Below, piece by piece: positions 19,499 through 62,214 of a DNA stretch of 64,000 nucleotides. Below the pieces are notes generated by a model, which was not told where the DNA came from, ran no database searches, and saw only the letters and a list, made by a program, of their open reading frames with translations. Every line of letters starts with the position of its first letter. The first letter of the stretch is position 1. Origin of the DNA: the human T2T-CHM13v2.0 reference genome, Homo sapiens. Position numbers and translations under genes: made by a program. The DNA is taken from the NCBI RefSeq assembly GCF_009914755.1, contig NC_060927.1; one strand, given 5' to 3'.

Positions 19499-19558
19499 AT
19501 ACTGGGTTACTTTGACTATGCCTTCACAGCCATCTTTACTGTTGAGATCCTGTTGAAG
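19499..19558 (+). CDS. CACNA1D: Exon ~22: IIIS2, common form (ILGYFDYAFTAIFTVEILLK)
   Basis: ccttgcag|ATACTG ... TTGAAG|gtaatg; 60 nt, phase 0-0. Confidence 0.96.
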
Positions 19559-19637: not shown

Positions 19638-19697
19638 ATGCTAGGTTACGCAGACTATGTCTTCACTGGTACTTTTGCATTTGAGATCATTTTAAAG
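19638..19697 (+). CDS. CACNA1D: Alternative IIIS2 exon (22a-type; MLGYADYVFTGTFAFEIILK), predicted mutually exclusive with 19499-19558
   Basis: ccttccag|ATGCTA ... TTAAAG|gtaaca; same 60-nt length and phase, homologous helix, 79-nt intervening intron. Confidence 0.85.
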
Positions 19698-32786: not shown

Positions 32787-32942
<156 letters not shown>

Positions 32943-33790: not shown

Positions 33791-34129
33791 CACTGCTGTT
33801 CCTACCCGCACCACCACCCTCATCATCATCAAGCAAGGATGTTCCCTCATTCTAAAAGCCTAGACAGAAGAGCCACACCAAGCTGAAATGTGGGATATTT
33901 GGCCCTCATTTTCTTTCCCCGTACAGCCAAAAACTCTCAGAGTTAGAGATGACAGAGTTCAGTGACCCAGTTAGTTATCTCTGTGTAAGGTATCTGACGA
34001 CACTGATTTAATTAAGTTAGGCATGGATTATGAAATGGATGGTTTCACATACTCCATAGTTACATGAAATTCTAATTCCAAACTGTTCCTTTCTTTAATT
34101 TGAATTAATCTCTATGCAATCTTTATCAG

Positions 34130-34159
34130 ATCTTTGTGGACCAAAAAGAAAGGACATTT
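34130..34159 (+). CDS. CACNA1D: Candidate 30-nt cassette microexon in the IVS2-S3 loop (IFVDQKERTF), exon-30a-like
   Basis: tctatgcaatctttatcag|ATCTTTGTGGACCAAAAAGAAAGGACATTT|gtaagt; phase 0-0, no stop, UGC at -15. Confidence 0.65.
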
Positions 34160-37100
34160 GTAAGTGATTAATTGGGGTGATTGCAGTGGGGTCAAATTTG
34201 GCACCTAATACATGGCCAGATGTTATTATCTACTGTGACTTGTCCATATCTACATACATAAACATTTCCTCCTTTTCCAAATTCATCTTAATTTCCTTTG
34301 AGATTTTGGTTTGCTTCCCTCTCACCTTTACTTCTTTGAACAATATTTGTCTGGACTGATGGAAAAGGTTGCAAAGTAAGAACATCGAAGGTACTTGAGA
34401 AATGCAACATGGAACCTCTCTGTGGAACATTTCCCAGATACCTGGGCCATGTCTTCCCTTGCCAGATGATTAAGCTCTGAAGTTTTTGAAAGCTTGCTCT
34501 AGGCTGAAGAGAAAGCACACTCACCCATGGTGTGTATGTGTGTGTGTCAGTGTGTGTGTGTGCACATGCGTGTGTGTTCATGTGTGTGCTTGCTCCCTTC
34601 AGCCGGCCAGTGCATTGACAGCCCAGTAGTGCACTGCCCAGTAGGCTGACAGTTGCCCAGAAGATCTCCAAACCTGGGAGGAGAGTTCAGTAGCGCGTGA
34701 ACAGATAGGCGATACCAAAGGGAAGTGAGTAGCTAAGCTATAATCAGTACTGATAGATCGGAGTTTTTAAATGGTTGATTTCTGCTGGAAATTGTACTGC
34801 TTGTAGTTTCACTCAGCAAGATATCTTCATAGCATTAGACAACCTCACGTTACAATTGGGAGAACTTTTAAGACAGTAGCAGCAGCATCTCCACACTTGA
34901 AGAGCACTGTCACTGCGTTCCCCCCGGCCAGGGGAGGTTGAGTTTATATCGTGTGCCGGGATGAGTGGGAGAGTATCGGTTCACCAAGAAGCAATGCCCT
35001 CCTTAAAATTTTTCCTGCCCTTTTTTTCTTGCTCTTCTCTTTGGTGTTCACAAGCCCAGCCCGAGCAAGTGGTCTTTCACAAAGAAGCCAGGGAGGCCTC
35101 CTCCCTCCTGGTCGGTGGGGTAGTCGGGCTGAAGAACAAGGTTGTCAAGGCTGCAGAAGGAGGAATATTCTGAGGAGATGGCCACATGGGACCTCAGCCT
35201 CCTCTCAGGAGAGCCTTTGTCTCATGGGAGGAGCTTTGTAACAGGGTCCCTCATGGCAGAGTTCTCCACTGAGTCAGGTACACCTTCTAGCAGGACTCGT
35301 CAGTATCTCTGTTAGGGGACACAGGCTGGCAGAGTTTCAGTTGCTTCATAAAATAAGTATAGAAAGTGAGGTAAGACAAAATTCTTACTGGTAGGTGAGA
35401 AGGCATTTCAAGAGGGAACGGTTAAAGAAAGTTGAGAAATCTGACCTTAAGGACTTATTTTATGTAAGGGAGCTTGATGGAGAAACTGGGCCTCCTAAGA
35501 GAGTATATTTAGAGGGAAATGGCCCAAGGTCATGGGAGATGAGATGACCCAGCCTCTGCCAACCCAGAGGGAGGTGGGAAGTAGACAGAGGGAGAAAACT
35601 CCGAGCTGGAAGCCTCCATGATGGAAGAGGCCATCTCACCTCAGGGGAGGAGGCATTTTGGAGCACTGGTCAGGCAAGAGTGGAAGGTAGTTAGGAGCCG
35701 AAGCGCAAAAGCATCCGGGAAAAGCAAGCAGGTGATTTAGCCGATTGTGGGTTCCCGAAGGGAAAGTTCACCAGCTGGGTGTTGACCTGGTGCAGCCTAG
35801 GTCCTGCTTTCAACTTGGGGTCAACTAGACCTCTGTAGGGTTTTCAAAAGCAGGCCCTAGTTTAGGTGACACAAGCCCCATTCTCCAAGCCTTTCCCTCC
35901 AGCTGCTAGAATTCTCCAACAAGTTCTCTTGCTCCAAGGAGGAAGATTGATTAAGAAGGGCCTTTTTCAAAGTGCTGGCTGCAGCAGGTATAGAGAGCAC
36001 TTCTGTGGAGTAAGAAGAGCCTGGTCTGTCTGGGATTCTCTTTGTGGGATGTTACCCATCTGGCGTTTTGTCCAGGCTGCATTCTAGGCCATGTTGTTTG
36101 CTGCGGTTACTGGCCTTCTCCAGTGAGCCATACTTCGTTCCCATCTTAGTCCTTTAAAGTGTTTTGATCTTGATTCTACCCTGAAAATATACTAATTTAT
36201 ACTCCTAGCTACTTGGGCTGGAAAAAGTAAGGAGAAATTAGGTTTGGGGAAAGAAGAAAGTGTTTTGGTGCTGTCCTCATGCTGCTGTGCAGAGCTGATG
36301 CAGAATGGGCACTGAGTCCTCATCTGCCTTCAAGGGCTCTGTTCGCTGCTCCAGGGTCCCTTGCAAGAGTAGAGCTTCTTCATGATCTTCCTAGAGTACC
36401 TTTTCCACCTGCTGGAGAGAAAATTTGACACTGTTTTTTTTTCAGTTCTTCATGACCCCATCTGTTCTAGATTTACTTTTAATGGCAAATAATACTTGAA
36501 ACCAAGTATTACTGTCCTTAGAACTTTACATTGGGCTTCTTGTTGGGCTCCATCCTGTCCTTTTGACATTGAGGTTTCCCAGAGCCCTCTCCTGGTCCCC
36601 TTCTTGCCTGGTAAGATGCATACATGCCAGAGCGTCAGTGGCCGCCTCTGTGGCATGCAGACCTGCACTGCCCTTCTCTCTCCTGAGCTTCTATGCCTCC
36701 CTGCCTTCAAAATGATCTCCCTGCCTCTGGCCTCAGCCCTTCTACCTACTCCCTTTGTAAGCCCAAAGCTGACCAGACCACTCTTGCAGTGATATTTTGG
36801 CACTGGCCACCTATTGCTTGAGAAAGCATATACAATTTTCTTAGTCGAATATTCAAAGTCCTCCATGAAGCACTGGCCCCTGTATATTTCTGCCTCATTT
36901 CCTGCCATTCCCTCCCTGCTATTTCTTCGTCCCCACCCCATCCCCAGGTGTTGGCATGCTAGACCTTTCCCTGCCCATGCGCCTCTGTCTAGATACCCTG
37001 CTTCCTCTTTGTTATCCTTGAAGGCCTGTGGGAAATGTTATCTTCTCTGAGACAGCATCCTCACCCCAGCCAGAGCCAGCCCTGTCCTCTGCTCATGCAT

Positions 37101-41212: not shown

Positions 41213-41296
41213 GGGTATTTTAGTGACGCCTGGAACACGTTTGACTCCCTCATCGTAATCGGCAGCATTATAGACGTGGCCCTCAGCGAAGCAGAC
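41213..41296 (+). CDS. CACNA1D: Mutually exclusive IVS3 exon, first copy (31a-type; [28 protein letters not shown])
   Basis: ctgtccag|GGGTAT ... GCAGAC|gtgagt; 84 nt. Confidence 0.96.
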
Positions 41297-41765: not shown

Positions 41766-41849
41766 CACTATTTCACTGATGCATGGAACACTTTTGATGC
41801 CTTAATTGTTGTTGGTAGCGTCGTTGATATTGCTATAACTGAAGTGAAT
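41766..41849 (+). CDS. CACNA1D: Mutually exclusive IVS3 exon, second copy (31b-type; [28 protein letters not shown])
   Basis: ccctaacag|CACTAT ... GTGAAT|gtaagt; 84 nt; missed by the ORF track. Confidence 0.94.
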
Positions 41850-44800
41850 GTAAGTAGCAAACTTTGTGTCCTATATCATGGTTGTTTTCATTAAGTCTGA
41901 CATAGAAGAGACTAGAGGCCCTGCCCTTAAACCTCCACACACTTTAGAAATCCAGACACAAATTTATTTTGAAAGACTAAGGATAATTTGTAGTTTCCTC
42001 TATCTCACCCCATCTCTATCTCCTTCCCCTGAAAAAGAGTGGGGAAGTCTATGTAGAATTGCCTTTTGGAACTAGAATAGTATTTCAAAAGATCTAATTA
42101 AAGTTATAAGGGCTGGGAGTTAATTGTGTGTCCGTGTGAATGTTGTCACTCACCAGTCGTGTGACCGTGGAAGTCATCCGAGTGCTATGTGCCTCAGTCT
42201 TTCCAGCTGTACATGGAGTTACTGATGTGCACCCTCGTCCCCGCAATGGTTCTGTGAGGGCACAGGCAGGAGACCCCACAGCCAGCTATGCCCTGAGCCT
42301 GTGGTGGCTGCTGCTGGTGCCCTCACCTGTACCGTGTCTGCTCTGAGTCTGACTGGTGACACTGGTGAACGTCCCACACCCAAAGGGTGATGCCAGCCAG
42401 TGGAAGGCTGCTTGGGGCCAGGGAAAAGAGGGCCGAGTGCAAACCAGGGAGAGGGTGTCAGTCCGCCTTTGTTACATCCAGTAGATTCACTTGAGGGGGA
42501 ACAAGTGCAGTAGTGGCATTGTAGATGGAGTGAACCACTCTCCCTAGAAGCACTCTGAGCACCTCTCCCCCTGCAAAATTAAGAAGCGTGAGAAAGGGAG
42601 CCCCTCCTTCTGCCTGGCTCCCCTTGGGTCTGACCCATGCTAGACCGGAAGGCCTCAGGCAGGCAGAAAGGGCCCTGTCTACCTGATCTGTTCCCAGTTC
42701 ATCAGCAAGTCTTAGTGGGCGTCCAGTGTGTGTGCCGAGCCTGTGCAGAGCCTTTCGAGAGAGTGGGCGGAGCACGGGGAGGGACTGTTGTGTGGTATTG
42801 GCTTTTGCTCCACAATGTCCAGCCCACCCCCTGCCCCTGATGCTCTGCCTGGTGACATCTGCAGGATTGAGGATTATAAGGTCCATCCTGGTGCCCAGAC
42901 AGCCTGCATCACACAAGGACTGTGAAATCCCTGTATGCCACCTATCTGGGTCCATGCTGATCCTGGCGTGTGAATAGTAAGACAGCCACCAGCCTGGCAG
43001 TCCTAAGACCTGGCAGTTGCAGCCCTAGTTCCAAACTGACTTGGATTCCAGCTCCCTCATGGGCCAAGTGGGGTGAATAACATCTGCCCCCTTGCTGCAG
43101 ATATGTTATAGTGATAAAATGATCGGAATATTCGGGAAAATGCTTGCTAAAAACCCCAAAGTTTTAGGGAGATACAAGTTTTGTATTATTCTAAGTGTAG
43201 ATTTTCCCTGTAATAAGTAAAACAGACTGTCAGACGTGACTGTGCCCATGAGGGTGTGATTTAAGCCTCGTCATGCCACGCTATGACCAGGCACTCAGAT
43301 GGTATTTTGCTAGACCTAGGTATACACATATTCCAACTTCTAAAGCCCAGACATGTAAATTCTACTTCATGTGAAATGTTCCATGTGTCAGCTATAAAAT
43401 TGCCATTCAGATATGTAAATGATGCTTGGTTGTAAAATAAGCTGGTGCTAATGGGAGAACAGCAGGTCCCTAACTGGGCTGCCCTGAGCTCTCTCCGAAG
43501 TTTATGGCTAGACATCTGCCAGTTTAATCATCTCACAACGCAAAGTGCTTACAATCTACTCGGAGGTATATTTACATGAAAATTCTGGAACATACCCTTC
43601 TGTGAGCCAGAGATGGCCTATAATGGAAGCAAAAATACAATAAACCAGCAGCTCGGCAGATATCCCTGGACTGCTCAGCACTTCAAGTGCTGTGCAGGTG
43701 GTGGGTGTAAACACTTAGCTTCCGGGCACCAGGATGTGGCCAAGGTCTGTCCACCTGGGGACACCCAGCTTTCTCACGCCTGACCTGCCTGCTGGCTGGC
43801 AGGGGTGTAGCACCCATGTACTCAGGGACAGCACGCGCCCGGCTTCCTGGCTGCCTCACGTGTGCTGCAGGCTGGCCCTGCTCCTCCCGCTGCCCCTGTC
43901 CCCTGTGGCCCAGCTTTGCTCATCAGTGTATCAGTGTTGCTGTGTTCACCTTGCACCAGTCAGGAAAGGGGCAGGTCTACGCTGAAGTTTCTAGTTAGCA
44001 TTTGACATTGGGGTATCTGTGCAACACAGGCTTTCAGGGGGCCCCTTCTTGGCATGCAATTAAACTTTCAAAATCACCTAGGCAGACACTCCCATAGTGT
44101 GCTTTCAGTCAGTGACCTTTTTCCTGGTCAGCTGTGGCCTGAGACCAGATATATTCCTCAGCCATGGCAATGCCAGTTCCCTACCCCAGGCCAGCAGAAC
44201 ACCACCTTCAGAAATCTCAGTGTCTCCTTGCTGGGCCTTGGAACAGAGGGGATGCTCAAGGCCACCTTCACATTTATTCCATCTTTCAACACACATTCAC
44301 TGGGCATCTATCACTTACAGGCTCTGGGCTAGGCTGTGGGGAGGCACAAAGATAAAAAAGGACTGGGTGTCCTTAACCTCTGGTGTAAATACATGACAGT
44401 GGGACTGTTGGTTCTGACACCCCACTCCCCTCCACATGTAGTTCCCCTGGGGAGCAGTGCACATCACATCCTTGGTGGCCTTGTCCCCTGAGCTGAGGGG
44501 TCAGCTGTCAGCTGGGTGTGAACACCTTTGGTTCATCATTGGCTGGTTGTAGCTGCCATAAGTCATCATTGTTTGCAATGTTTAACCTGCCATGCTCTCT
44601 TCCCCAAACTCTGTTGATCTTTCTTTTCTGTTGCCTAATTGATTTTCATGTTGGTTTTATTTTTAGAAAATTGTAGCGGCAAGTATATATAAGCATATAT
44701 ACGGTGAAGTCCTTAAAGCAAAGCACTTCTAAAGAATGTGTGCTTGTTTTTGGCCTCTCCACCTTTGGTTTTCACTGCGCTCCACAGGACGTGCTAAGGA

Positions 44801-46433
44801 TTGGTTGCAATCATCTAAATTGTTCCCCATCCCATAGATTGTCATCTCCAGCCTGGGGCCATCTTGGTCAGTCACACTTGGCTCTGTGACTTGCCAACAT
44901 AGTCTTCCAGAATGAATGATCTGGCTGAGAAATGATTGAATTCAGCCTGCGTTTGTATTCTTTGCAAAAACGTTTTGGGTAGTCCTTTGCATGGTCCTGC
45001 CTGCGCACGCACCAGCCTGCTTCATCCTACTGTCCCCCTCCCATGTCCCCACACCCCGCTCAGTTCCTGGTTTGGCAGCACTCATGGACTTATCTCCATC
45101 ACATTTGGTCCTAACCTCACCAGGCTGCTAAAATGACACACTGTGACTGCTGGGCTCCCTCTTGCTCCGTCCCTCTTTGATGCCTGTTTGTTCCTTGAAT
45201 GATGAAATGACCCAGCAACATACTGTCCCTAACCCATGGATGGCTGTCACTGACATTTGTCTCTTCTCATTATCATTAGTGTCTGGGAGGCAAAACACTT
45301 GTTTAGAAGCTGTATCTGCCTTATTATTACTTACTTTGAAGGAGCAGGTAAAAAGTCATTAGGGAGCTCACTCTCAGAGATCCAGGAATGGTCCCTGCCT
45401 TTTAAGGTATGCTGTTTGGACCAGGTGGCTGACAGTCTCACTCATCTTCTTTTTCTGACCCCACAGTAAGGTTGTGTAGTCCCCCATTTCATATGTGAAC
45501 CCTTTCCCAGGAGCCAGCTCAGCTGGGCACTGGGTTGTGGACACAGACCCAGCAACCCCAAATAAAGAAGCCCTCCTCCCAGAGGTGTTACCTGTGAGCT
45601 CAGAAATAGTCAGAGGGAAGACTGGCTTCTCCGCAATGCCTCGGATTACCTGGCCCAGCTGTTCTGGGATGCTGGTTTGCTTCCTGTCTGAATTAGAAAG
45701 CTGCATCCTCTCAGCTCTTCCAAGCACAGATAGAAATTAAAACAGAAAATGAAATGGACTGATTTCATTGATTTCACTTGGGAACCTCAGGGTCTTTTTG
45801 ACTTCCACGGTTGCAGGGGGCTGCCCCAGAGCCTATGTGGTAAGAGCCTGCTTGAGAGCCCTGTGGGAAGAGGCTCGAGGGAACATCAGCAGAGCCCCAG
45901 GAATCTAAGGAGCTTTCTGGACCCTGACATGTAGTCCGGCCTCCTGAGGCTAAGGGGCTGTCTCCTGTAGGGTTCCCAGCTGAAGAATGTGACATCTTAG
46001 GGTGGGAAGGGACTGCCAAGTTTGTCTTGTCCAAGCCCTGAGGTGACACTGGAATTCCGCTTATTGAAAACTGATTAGTAGCCCCTTGTGGCCATGTTTG
46101 GAAAGCTACCTAGTGAAGAGTCCTTCCCCAGTCTGGTGTCCTCTAGGGGTGTCCAGCATAGCGTAGCCCACTTGCGTTCCAGCTCCACCAGTTCCCTTCA
46201 TGTTGAAACCTCCTCCATCCCTTGTAGGGGAGATGGGGATGGAGTCTAATCGCTCTCTCTTCATCCGTGTACTGTTCCCTCGTCAACCCAGAAAGAACCC
46301 ACTGTTCAGCCACAGCAGCCTGAGTGGGCTTTTCTAGTGACCCCACTCTGTATGGCCGCTCGAGATCTAAAGGGCATTAGCTGGTATAGGCCACCTGTTA
46401 ACTACTCGGGCCAGCTTTACCCTGGCCCAGGAC

Positions 46434-61515: not shown

Positions 61516-62214
61516 TACTGGCTTTGCATTTTTATTTAAGTACATGTGGACTTAGACGTTGAGATGGTTGTTTTTGACTGTTCTGTTTCCAAGTTTTAAA
61601 GGTGCAGGATCTGTTCACCCAGTGCCACCACACCAGCATTCTAGCATCCTTGGGCCGGGCACGTGATGAGCCTTTGGTGTGTTTCGTGACCAGCGAACTT
61701 TTATAGCGTCGCTGCCGCCACGGCTTTCGAGACTGGTCTGGCTCAGGTCTGGTAGCTGACTTCAGGACCCAGGCCAGGACGGTGACCGAGGCCCTGCCCC
61801 TGAGAAGGTGATGAGCTCTGGCTCTTGGGGCGCAGACAGAGCAGCATGCCAGCCAGCTCTGCTCCTTAGCATGAAGCGAGAAGCAACGTGAGCTTTTGTT
61901 GCTGAAGGGGTTACCCGTAGCTGGCACAGCCACAGGCTCAAAGCTGGGGAAGATGGCCCAGAAAGAAATGATAAAAGGAAGACAAACCAACAACAACAAC
62001 AAAACAAAACAAAAGTCCTCCCACCTGGAGGGCCCTGGCTTCCCACAGGAGAACCGATACTGCACATTTAAAACAACTCCTTGGTTTTCATTCTTTTCTT
62101 TTTAGCTGCACACCTAAGAGCTTGCATGGCTTACATGAAATGCTTTGGAAAAATTGTAACAATGTGCTTGAGCTTTTCCTGCAGCCTCCATTCCTTTCAC
62201 CTCTCAGTCTTTCA

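What the first reader, a model, noticed from the sequence alone, without database searches (positions are those of the whole stretch)
34085..34165. Intact 30-nt microexon IFVDQKERTF in the IVS2-S3 loop: likely human counterpart of the hair-cell exon 30a
Seen: 1.2 kb into the 8.3-kb intron after ...AFKPK there is a pyrimidine-rich acceptor region with a ttaat branch-like motif and TGC at -15. It is followed by AG, exactly 30 stop-free nt in phase 0, and a consensus gtaagt donor. Known (from memory, verify): chicken cochlear alpha-1D carries a 10-aa IVS2-S3 insert, exon 30a, that I recall as IFVRKKERWL (6/10 identical). UGC just upstream of the acceptor is the SRRM3/SRRM4 microexon signature, and SRRM4 is required in hair cells. 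Inference: humans retain a functional or recently silenced sensory-cell microexon that is absent from the canonical protein. It has lost basic charge (RK to DQ) relative to the recalled bird peptide.
Basis: partly seen in the sequence, partly recalled or inferred. Interest (0 to 1): 0.8.

Follow-up and report, generated by a model that had tools for sequence, protein, structure and literature searches.

The report
Silent human copy of exon 30a
An intron of the human calcium-channel gene CACNA1D holds an intact, unannotated 30-base copy of a small optional exon that fish, reptiles and birds splice into this channel, but nothing found here shows that mammals still use it.

Summary
Window 34130-34159 (+) is AG | 30 stop-free nt in phase 0 (IFVDQKERTF) | GTAAGT. 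It lies 1,233 nt into the 8,315-nt intron after exon 30.

The recalled bird peptide was right. Chicken UniProt isoforms 5-7, other birds and turtles carry AFKPK-IFVRKKERWL-GYF. In all, 38 retrieved proteins from sharks, rays, teleosts, lizard, tuatara, turtles and birds carry a 10-aa insert at this junction, consensus [ILV][FC]V.KK[EDK]R.L. The human peptide scores 13.7 bits on that profile, second of all six-frame 10-mers in the window. None of 1,500 simulated introns gave such a hit with AG/GT flanks. Orthology is therefore secure.

Use in humans is not shown.
- 0 of 62 mammalian models carry the insert.
- Two of five invariant residues are changed (K5Q, L10F).
- A mouse hair-cell single-cell study lists the counterparts of chicken exons 9a and 22a but no 30-nt exon here.

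A decay simulation rules out loss at the mammalian stem but allows loss within roughly the last 100 My.

Verdict: a real ortholog, most likely silent or rarely used. About 0.2 that it is a working, cell-type-restricted microexon.

The parts
32787..32897 (+). CACNA1D exon 30 (IVS1-S2 loop and IVS2), ends ...VIAFKPK in phase 0. It is the upstream splice partner. It matches residues 1226-1262 of the solved human Cav1.3 chain 7uhf_A.
   Evidence: hub annotation table
34060..34129 (+). Acceptor region: 68-nt AG-free zone, TTAAT branch-like motifs (34095-34099, 34105-34109), interrupted pyrimidine tract, TCTCT-A-TGC with TGC at 34115-34117 (-15..-13), and CAG acceptor (AG at 34128-34129).
   Evidence: Acceptor score exceeds 10 of 28 annotated acceptors.
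34130..34159 (+). 30-nt phase 0-0 cassette encoding IFVDQKERTF: the human ortholog of CACNA1D exon 30a, the 10-aa IVS2-S3 linker insert.
   Evidence: sequence, translation; orthologous inserts in 38 non-mammalian proteins; significance
34160..34165 (+). Donor GTAAGT. The intronic part is a perfect consensus. The exonic part (TTT) is poor.
   Evidence: donor score exceeds 8 of 28 annotated donors
41213..41296 (+). Exon 31a (GYFSDAWN..., IVS3), the downstream partner used in 37 of the 38 insert-bearing models.
   Evidence: hub table
41766..41849 (+). Exon 31b (HYF..., alternative IVS3), the downstream partner in 1 of the 38 insert-bearing models (Cathartes, P0134).
   Evidence: hub table

Best explanation
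Window 34130-34159 is the human ortholog of an ancient jawed-vertebrate cassette exon of CACNA1D, 'exon 30a'. The exon is 30 nt, phase 0-0. Where it is spliced in, it adds 10 residues ([ILV][FC]V.KK[EDK]R.L) to the short cytoplasmic hairpin between S2 and S3 of the domain IV voltage sensor.

In the human genome the element is still formally spliceable: AG acceptor, 68-nt AG-free zone, branch-like motifs, GTAAGT donor, open frame. In mammals it is most likely a silent exon, or at most a very rarely or very narrowly used one. It has lost two of the five residues that are invariant from sharks to birds (K5Q, L10F) and its net charge has fallen from +1..+4 to 0.

Its small size, poor exonic donor context (TTT|GT) and interrupted pyrimidine tract would make skipping the default unless an activator acts on it. 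Candidates are SRRM3/4 on the UGC at -15, or RBM24.

Shown: sequence, position, phase, orthology, absence from the retrieved models. Inferred: default skipping, dependence on an activator, the effect on the voltage sensor, and that selective constraint lasted well into mammalian evolution.
For: Anatomy.

Orthology:
- 38 of 223 proteins retrieved carry a 10-aa insert directly after AFKP[KRM].
- There are 12 distinct peptides. Taxon names come from the tables: birds including chicken UniProt isoforms 5-7, turtles, tuatara, Anolis, a shark, rays, a skate and teleosts.
- In the catfish Pangasianodon, isoforms X1, X2, X3, X7, X8 and X13 have the insert while X9-X12 lack it. It is therefore an alternative cassette.
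- The human peptide shares I1, F2, V3, K6, E7, R8 with birds and T9 with tuatara and catfish.
- PSSM 13.7 bits, rank 2 in the window. 0 of 1,500 simulated introns gave such a hit with AG/GT flanks.
- The stretch is single-copy.

Long-lasting constraint. In a neutral-decay simulation from an ancestor chosen as close to the human codons as possible, P(AG, GT, frame and PSSM >= human all kept) was:

| substitutions per site | P |
|---|---|
| 0.1 | 0.32 |
| 0.15 | 0.16 |
| 0.3 | 0.013 |
| 0.5 | 0.00035 |

Silence in mammals:
- 0 of 62 named mammalian models carry the insert. 56 join AFKPK directly to G/HYF. The other 6 show exon skipping or intron read-through.
- 0 of 25 short-fragment hits carry it (21 new proteins read, the other 4; search).
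- The hub's RefSeq table of 22 human transcripts lacks it.
- Ranum 2019 (PMC6424336, passages and Table 1 seen) lists unannotated Cacna1d exons 1B, 9B, 22B and 31B in mouse hair cells, but no 30-nt exon after exon 30. That table includes exons as short as 24 bp, and the text reports a 6-bp exon.
- As a control, the 22a-type exon appears in 13 mammalian models and is 16/20 identical between human and bird, against 6/10 for 30a.
Against: - The element is fully intact after about 320 My. Under neutrality that is only moderately likely even for a loss about 100 My ago (0.16-0.32), so continued use cannot be excluded.
- Gene models rarely draw on hair-cell, photoreceptor or pineal RNA.
- The protein database is clustered at 90% identity, so a mammalian isoform differing only by this insert could be hidden behind a representative that lacks it.
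- Only the best 120 of 3,441 hits and 120 of 1,902 were visible.
- The Ranum table is a selected list of 20 exons, not an exhaustive junction catalogue. Its supplements could not be opened.
- Nakano 2012 (PMC3464207, passages seen) reports an Srrm4-dependent splicing defect in Cacna1d in the mouse inner ear without naming the exon in the main text.
- Zheng 2021 (RBM24-dependent, cochlea-specific Cacna1d exon, cited in PMC10018040) was not held.
- No mammalian genome other than human could be compared.
Confidence: 0.68

Rival explanations
1. The element is a working human microexon, included only in rare sensory or neuroendocrine cell types (hair cells, photoreceptors, pinealocytes, islet or chromaffin cells) under SRRM3/4 or RBM24 control. 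It gives a Cav1.3 isoform with a modified IVS2-S3 linker that annotation has missed.
For: - Both splice sites and the frame are intact, and the boundaries equal those of the non-mammalian exon.
[quoted passage not shown] Nakano 2012 describes this arrangement upstream of Srrm4-regulated exons (PMC3464207, passages seen).
- The AG-free zone is long.
- The decay simulation disfavours old loss.
- The other two chicken hair-cell exons went unannotated in mouse and human until single-cell data appeared, and exon 22a is still missing from the hub's human RefSeq table.
- Cacna1d has an unnamed Srrm4-dependent event in the mouse inner ear.
Against: - 0 of 62 mammalian models and 0 of 25 short-fragment hits carry it.
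- It is not in Ranum's Table 1, which holds exons 9B and 22B.
- Two of five otherwise invariant residues are replaced, and the PSSM is 13.7 bits against 29.6-34.8 for true members.
- The UGC is not discriminating (12 of 29 ordinary exons).
- No UGCAUG on the + strand lies nearer than 3.7 kb.
- The RNA shows no special structure (z = +0.79).
Confidence: 0.22
2. The stretch is kept for a non-coding reason, for example as a decoy or recursive-splicing intermediate, or as an intronic splicing element that helps removal of the 8.3-kb intron or the choice between exons 31a and 31b. The open frame would then be a leftover.
For: The splice signals are intact although no mammalian model includes the exon. 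The insert is coupled to the GYF-type exon 31 in 37 of 38 models, which hints at an interplay with exon 31 choice.
Against: There is no direct evidence. A non-coding role would not preserve the reading frame and 6-7 of 10 residues. The 37/38 coupling may be a bias of model building.
Confidence: 0.07
3. It is a chance pseudo-exon with no relation to exon 30a.
For: Splice-like frame-preserving decoys of equal crude strength occur about 4 times in the window's 56 kb of intron.
Against: The peptide match ranks 2 of all six-frame 10-mers in the window. 13 of 1,500 simulated introns reach the score anywhere and 0 of 1,500 with AG/GT flanks. The intron, strand, phase, length and boundaries are all the right ones.
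Confidence: 0.02

Closest known systems
CACNA1D exon 30a of non-mammalian vertebrates (10-aa IVS2-S3 insert). Chicken UniProt isoforms 5-7. Described for chicken cochlear hair cells by Kollmar et al. 1997, PNAS 94:14889; that paper was not held and is cited from reference lists and from recall.
   Same: Same gene. Same intron (after ...AFKPK, before GYF/HYF). Same length (30 nt), same phase and same boundaries. I1, F2, V3, K6, E7, R8 are shared with chicken and T9 with tuatara and catfish.
   Different: The human copy has Q for the invariant K5 and F for the invariant L10, plus D at the variable position 4. Net charge is 0 rather than +1..+4. PSSM is 13.7 against 29.6-34.8 bits. It is absent from all 62 mammalian models seen. 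Inclusion in mRNA is unknown.
Mammalian counterparts of the other chicken hair-cell exons: Cacna1d exons 9B and 22B of Ranum et al. 2019 (PMC6424336, Table 1).
   Same: They are unannotated, conserved, in-frame small exons of the same gene with non-mammalian orthologs. Exon 22B lies in this window at 19638-19697.
   Different: 9B and 22B were seen in mouse hair-cell reads. The 22a type is in 13 mammalian models and is 16/20 identical between human and bird. The 30a counterpart is not in that table and is in no mammalian model.
SRRM3/SRRM4 (eMIC)-dependent neural and endocrine microexons, for example the 27-nt CACNA1D exon 44.
   Same: Small, in-frame, in the same gene. UGC lies close upstream of the acceptor, after a C/U-rich stretch.
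   Different: Exon 44 is the CACNA1D microexon named in the one text where I saw the exon identified. The zebrafish paper names no exon and cites a C-terminal splicing paper. The islet preprint names none. The present element is 30 nt, slightly above the 3-27 nt class. Its SRRM dependence and tissue pattern are untested, and the UGC is not discriminating here.

Membership tests
CACNA1D exon 30a (IVS2-S3 cassette) | Lies in the intron between exon 30 (...AFKPK) and exons 31a/31b, on the coding strand | tested here: met
   1,233 nt downstream of exon 30, + strand
CACNA1D exon 30a (IVS2-S3 cassette) | 30 nt, phase 0-0, bounded by AG and GT at the same peptide boundaries as the non-mammalian insert | tested here: met
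CACNA1D exon 30a (IVS2-S3 cassette) | Peptide motif [ILV][FC]V.KK[EDK]R.L, with V3, K5, K6, R8 and L10 invariant in 12 distinct peptides | tested here: inconclusive
   V3, K6 and R8 are kept; K5 is Q and L10 is F. 13.7 bits against 29.6-34.8 for members, yet far above background.
CACNA1D exon 30a (IVS2-S3 cassette) | Actually spliced into mRNA as an alternative cassette | not testable with these tools
   No RNA-seq access. Indirect evidence: 0 of 62 mammalian models, 0 of 25 short-fragment hits, not in Ranum Table 1.
SRRM3/4-dependent (eMIC) microexon | Length 3-27 nt (strict) or up to 51 nt (broad); the size limits are recalled | tested here: inconclusive
   30 nt: outside the strict class and inside the broad one
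SRRM3/4-dependent (eMIC) microexon | [quoted passage not shown] | tested here: met
   TGC at -15..-13. 12 of 29 ordinary exons of the window also have TGC in -20..-5, so meeting this carries little weight.
SRRM3/4-dependent (eMIC) microexon | Inclusion depends on SRRM3/4 and is neural, sensory or endocrine-specific | not testable with these tools
   No expression data.

The most novel reading that the evidence does not exclude
Humans still splice this 30-nt exon into Cav1.3 in a rare cell type (inner or vestibular hair cells, photoreceptors, pinealocytes or similar). That would give a mammal-specific, charge-neutral version (IFVDQKERTF) of the ancient basic IVS2-S3 insert. A coding exon of a deafness and bradycardia gene would then be missing from current annotation and from diagnostic panels, and domain IV voltage-sensor tuning by this cassette would be conserved from sharks to humans.
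Probability: 0.2. Interest if true: 0.7.

Novelty: new member of a known kind. Interest (0 to 1): 0.45.

Why it matters
CACNA1D (Cav1.3) carries the hair-cell synaptic calcium current. According to the reference titles seen (Baig 2011), its loss causes deafness with bradycardia.

Chicken hair cells were reported to use three special exons: 9a, 22a and 30a. The first two now have mouse hair-cell counterparts. This report shows that the third also survives intact in the human genome, and that the cassette dates back to the jawed-vertebrate ancestor.

If the exon is used, it is an unannotated coding exon of a disease gene and a handle on domain IV voltage-sensor tuning. If it is silent, it is a clean example of a lineage-specific shutdown of an ancient alternative exon whose sequence has not yet decayed. 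It would also serve as a natural test substrate for what SRRM3/4 or RBM24 need in order to activate a microexon.

Tried and rejected
Literature
- The Kollmar 1997 paper was not held under DOI, PMC id or PubMed id. Zheng 2021 and Shen 2006 were not held either.
- Full-text searches for 'exon 30a' with channel terms returned no paper with 'exon 30a': none at all, and no listed paper with it.
- A search for the peptides IFVRKKERWL, IFVDQKERTF and VRKKERW and for 'IVS2-IVS3' returned nothing relevant. Its 'exon 30a' hits concern NF1, latrophilin-3 and NOVA2 papers.
- So I found no printed statement on a mammalian exon 30a in the held library. The library lacks most subscription papers.

- Supplements.
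- Earlier findings.
- Structure prediction. No model of the insert in the voltage sensor was made.

Paralogs
- The equivalent introns of CACNA1F and CACNA1S are short and hold no 30a-like peptide.
- 20 kb downstream of CACNA1C exon 30 gives no hit above 7.3 bits.
- A kakapo Cav1.2-like model (P0169) has a 13-aa insert at the same junction. The best human CACNA1C look-alike is a weak 18-nt AG|RQGTWL|GTTTCT, judged to be chance.

Other checks on the window
- Repeat origin is rejected: the stretch is single-copy.
- Rbfox sites: no + strand TGCATG between 27950 and 37891.
- RNA structure around the exon is no more stable than shuffles (z = +0.79).
- A look for Ranum's exon 31B by ORF listing was uninformative.
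- The open frame around the microexon is only 20 codons, too short for a protein search.

An earlier count of 7 mammalian models with the 22a-type exon used too narrow a pattern. One search gives 13.
Full report
**1. The observation**

Exon 30 of CACNA1D (window 32787-32897) ends ...GCA TTT AAG CCT AAG | gtgagt, that is ...AFKPK with a complete codon. The next annotated exons are 31a (41213-41296, GYF...) and 31b (41766-41849, HYF...), so the intron is 8,315 nt.

The candidate starts 1,233 nt into this intron. The + strand reads ...tttaatttgaattaatctctaTGCaatctttatcAG | ATC TTT GTG GAC CAA AAA GAA AGG ACA TTT | GTAAGTgatt. Translation gives IFVDQKERTF.

- two TTAAT motifs (34095-34099 and 34105-34109);
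- TGC at -15..-13 (34115-34117);
- 30 stop-free nucleotides in phase 0;
- a GTAAGT donor.

In addition, no AG occurs between 34060 and 34127. The 401 bp around the element occur once in the genome, so it is not a repeat.

**2. Is it more than chance?**

The splice-like pattern alone is not. I scored sites with a crude donor matrix (frequencies recalled from memory) and a simple pyrimidine and YAG acceptor score:
- The candidate donor beats 8 of 28 annotated donors of the window.
- The candidate acceptor beats 10 of 28 annotated acceptors.
- Among 3,009 frame-preserving, stop-free AG..GT intervals of 51 nt or less in the 56,061 intron bases, 4 others are at least as good on both sites.
- 43 lie within 2 bits on both.

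A TGC within -20..-5 precedes 12 of 29 annotated exons, so it is not a signature on its own. The peptide is what carries the weight.

**3. The peptide and its relatives**

I searched the protein database with the translation of exon 29 (1,902 hits, best 120 listed, lengths 94-2,000). I then searched with the 50 residues around the insert of a hornbill protein (3,441 hits, best 120 listed, lengths 832-2,648). Together these gave 223 proteins.

Thirty-eight of them carry a 10-residue insert directly after AFKP[KRM] and before GYF/HYF. Taxon names are taken from the tables.

| Insert | Count | Taxa |
|---|---|---|
| IFVRKKERWL | 14 | chicken UniProt isoforms 5, 6, 7 (P0121, P0122, P0124), ten other birds... 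see note |
| ICVRKKERWL | 1 | soft-shelled turtle |
| ICVSKKERTL | 1 | tuatara |
| ICVPKKKRYL | 1 | Anolis |
| VCVEKKERWL | 6 | a shark and an electric ray |
| VCVKKKERWL | 1 | a skate |
| LFVPKKERTL | 6 | Pangasianodon catfish |
| LCVEKKDRML | 3 | teleosts |
| LFVAKKDRML | 2 | teleosts |
| LCVAKKDRLL | 1 | teleost |
| ICVQKKDRML | 1 | teleost |
| LCVPKKDRML | 1 | teleost |

Note on the first row: the 14 are the three chicken isoforms, nine other birds and two turtles.

The cassette is alternative within a species. Pangasianodon isoforms X1, X2, X3, X7, X8 and X13 have it, and X9-X12 do not.

The consensus is [ILV][FC]V.KK[EDK]R.L, with V3, K5, K6, R8 and L10 invariant. The human peptide keeps I1, F2, V3, K6, E7, R8 and T9 (T9 as in tuatara and catfish). 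It has a new residue (D) at the hypervariable position 4. It departs at two invariant positions: K5 is Q and L10 is F.

On a profile of the 12 peptides:
- The human peptide scores 13.7 bits. True members score 29.6-34.8.
- It is the second-best 10-mer in all six frames of the 64-kb window. The best, 13.8 bits, is a lysine-rich stretch on the minus strand without splice flanks. The third scores 8.1.
- Of 1,500 first-order Markov simulations of the intron, 13 contained any + strand hit that good, and none had one flanked by AG and GT.

The intron, strand, phase, length and boundaries are also the right ones. I regard orthology with exon 30a as established short of a genomic alignment.

**4. How old is the cassette?**

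Its presence in cartilaginous fishes, teleosts, lepidosaurs, turtles and birds places it in the jawed-vertebrate ancestor.

The human paralogs give no sign of it. The equivalent introns of CACNA1F and CACNA1S are a few hundred bases long and hold no similar peptide. Twenty kilobases downstream of CACNA1C exon 30 give nothing above 7.3 bits. A kakapo Cav1.2-like model has a 13-residue insert at the same junction, but its best human look-alike is weak.

All 14 amphibian representatives join AFKPK directly to the next exon.

**5. Is it used in mammals?**

I found no positive evidence.
- Of 62 proteins with mammalian names (a list compiled by hand from the tables: placentals, marsupials, platypus), 56 join AFKPK directly to GYF/HYF. 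Six show exon skipping or intron read-through. None has the insert.
- A mammalian protein with a human-like insert would have aligned to the bird query without a gap and ranked above the mammals lacking it. None did.
- A search restricted to proteins of 30-831 residues, meant to catch transcript fragments, gave 25 hits. None has the insert (21 new proteins read, the other 4; search).
- The hub's RefSeq table (22 human transcripts) has no exon here.
- Ranum et al. 2019 (PMC6424336; passages and Table 1 seen) list unannotated Cacna1d exons 1B, 9B (84 bp), 22B (60 bp) and 31B (an alternative 3' end) from mouse single hair cells. No exon lies between exons 30 and 31. The table contains exons as short as 24 bp, and the text mentions a 6-bp exon, so size alone would not have hidden it.

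Exon 22B serves as a control. I located it in this window at 19638-19697 (AG...GTAACA, MLGYADYVFTGTFAFEIILK). The same type of exon is in 13 mammalian models and in the chicken isoforms that also carry the 30a insert. It is 16/20 identical between human and bird. Exon 30a is 6/10 identical, and constitutive exon 30 is 33/37.

Caveats:
- The database is clustered at 90% identity.
- Only the top 120 hits of each search are visible.
- Gene models seldom rest on hair-cell RNA.
- Ranum's table is a selection.
- A review (PMC10018040; passages seen) cites an RBM24-dependent, cochlea-specific Cacna1d exon from Zheng 2021, which was not held.
- The CACNA1D microexon named in the one SRRM3 text where I saw it identified is the 27-nt C-terminal exon 44. 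The zebrafish paper cites a C-terminal splicing paper. The islet preprint names no exon.

**6. How long has it been constrained?**

I simulated neutral decay of AG + 30 nt + GTAAGT from a hypothetical ancestor whose codons were chosen as close to the human ones as possible. That choice favours the neutral model. Substitutions followed Jukes-Cantor, and indels occurred at one tenth of the substitution rate.

| Substitutions per site | P(AG, GT, frame and profile score >= human all kept) |
|---|---|
| 0.1 | 0.32 |
| 0.15 | 0.16 |
| 0.3 | 0.013 |
| 0.5 | 0.00035 |

The exon therefore cannot have been dead since the mammal-sauropsid split. Constraint must have lasted well into mammalian evolution. 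A loss within roughly the last hundred million years on the slow human lineage is not excluded. (The conversion of distance to time rests on my general knowledge of mammalian neutral rates, not on a call.)

At least four nucleotide changes separate the human exon from the nearest plausible ancestor, and all four change the amino acid.

**7. Mechanism**

*Shown.* In non-mammals the cassette adds ten residues to the very short cytoplasmic S2-S3 hairpin of the domain IV voltage sensor: a hydrophobic start, a KK[ED]R core and a conserved leucine. The insertion point follows the residue matching K1262 of the solved human Cav1.3 chain 7uhf_A.

*Inferred.*
- The insert lengthens the hairpin and places a basic patch at the inner membrane face.
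- There it could alter voltage-sensor IV movement or contacts with lipids or cytoplasmic parts of the channel.
- No structure model could be made, and no functional study was found.
- In human pre-mRNA the exon is short, its donor has a perfect intronic half but a poor exonic half (TTT), and its pyrimidine tract is interrupted by purines. Skipping should be the default unless an activator binds.
- The UCUCU-A-UGC at -20..-13 is the arrangement that Nakano 2012 describes for Srrm4 targets. It is common among ordinary exons here.
- No Rbfox site lies nearby, and the local RNA has no unusual stability.

**8. Verdict**

- Most likely (0.68) it is a true but silent or nearly silent ortholog of exon 30a, switched off or fading in mammals.
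- A working, narrowly expressed human microexon remains possible (0.22).
- A non-coding role (0.07) and chance (0.02) are unlikely.
- It is a new member of a known kind.
- Interest is moderate. It rises sharply if junction reads or mammalian conservation turn up.

Noticed in passing
window 19638-19697 (+): A 60-nt twin of exon 22 (19499-19558) lies 79 nt downstream of it, with AG...GTAACA flanks, and encodes MLGYADYVFTGTFAFEIILK (alternative IIIS2). It is not in the hub's RefSeq exon table. It corresponds to 'Cacna1d exon 22B' of Ranum 2019 Table 1. 13 mammalian models and the chicken isoforms 5-7 carry this exon type, and human and bird are 16/20 identical.
   Followed up: partly
window about 44,670-46,146 (+), estimated: Ranum 2019 Table 1 lists a Cacna1d 'exon 31B' (coding, with a 3' UTR, hg19 chr3:53,799,478-53,800,954). 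With the 808-bp offset measured at exon 22B, it would fall in the intron between exons 31b and 32 of this window. That would be an alternative truncating 3' end after domain IV S3. An ORF listing did not pin it down.
   Followed up: no
L006 8738-8755 (G000:C12, CACNA1C intron after the exon 30 equivalent): A kakapo Cav1.2-like model (P0169) has a 13-aa insert VGTIGVEKQETWL at the same IVS2-S3 junction. The best human CACNA1C look-alike is an 18-nt AG|RQGTWL|GTTTCT with a weak donor, which is probably chance.
   Followed up: partly
proteins: In 37 of 38 insert-bearing models the insert is followed by the GYF-type exon 31, and in only one (Cathartes, P0134) by the HYF type. All 14 amphibian representatives lack the insert. 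Either result may reflect how the models were built.
   Followed up: no
window 62086-62115 (-): The only 10-mer in the window that scores as high as the candidate on the insert profile is RCAAKKKRMK (13.8 bits). It lies on the minus strand, has no splice flanks and is lysine-rich, so it is a chance match.
   Followed up: no
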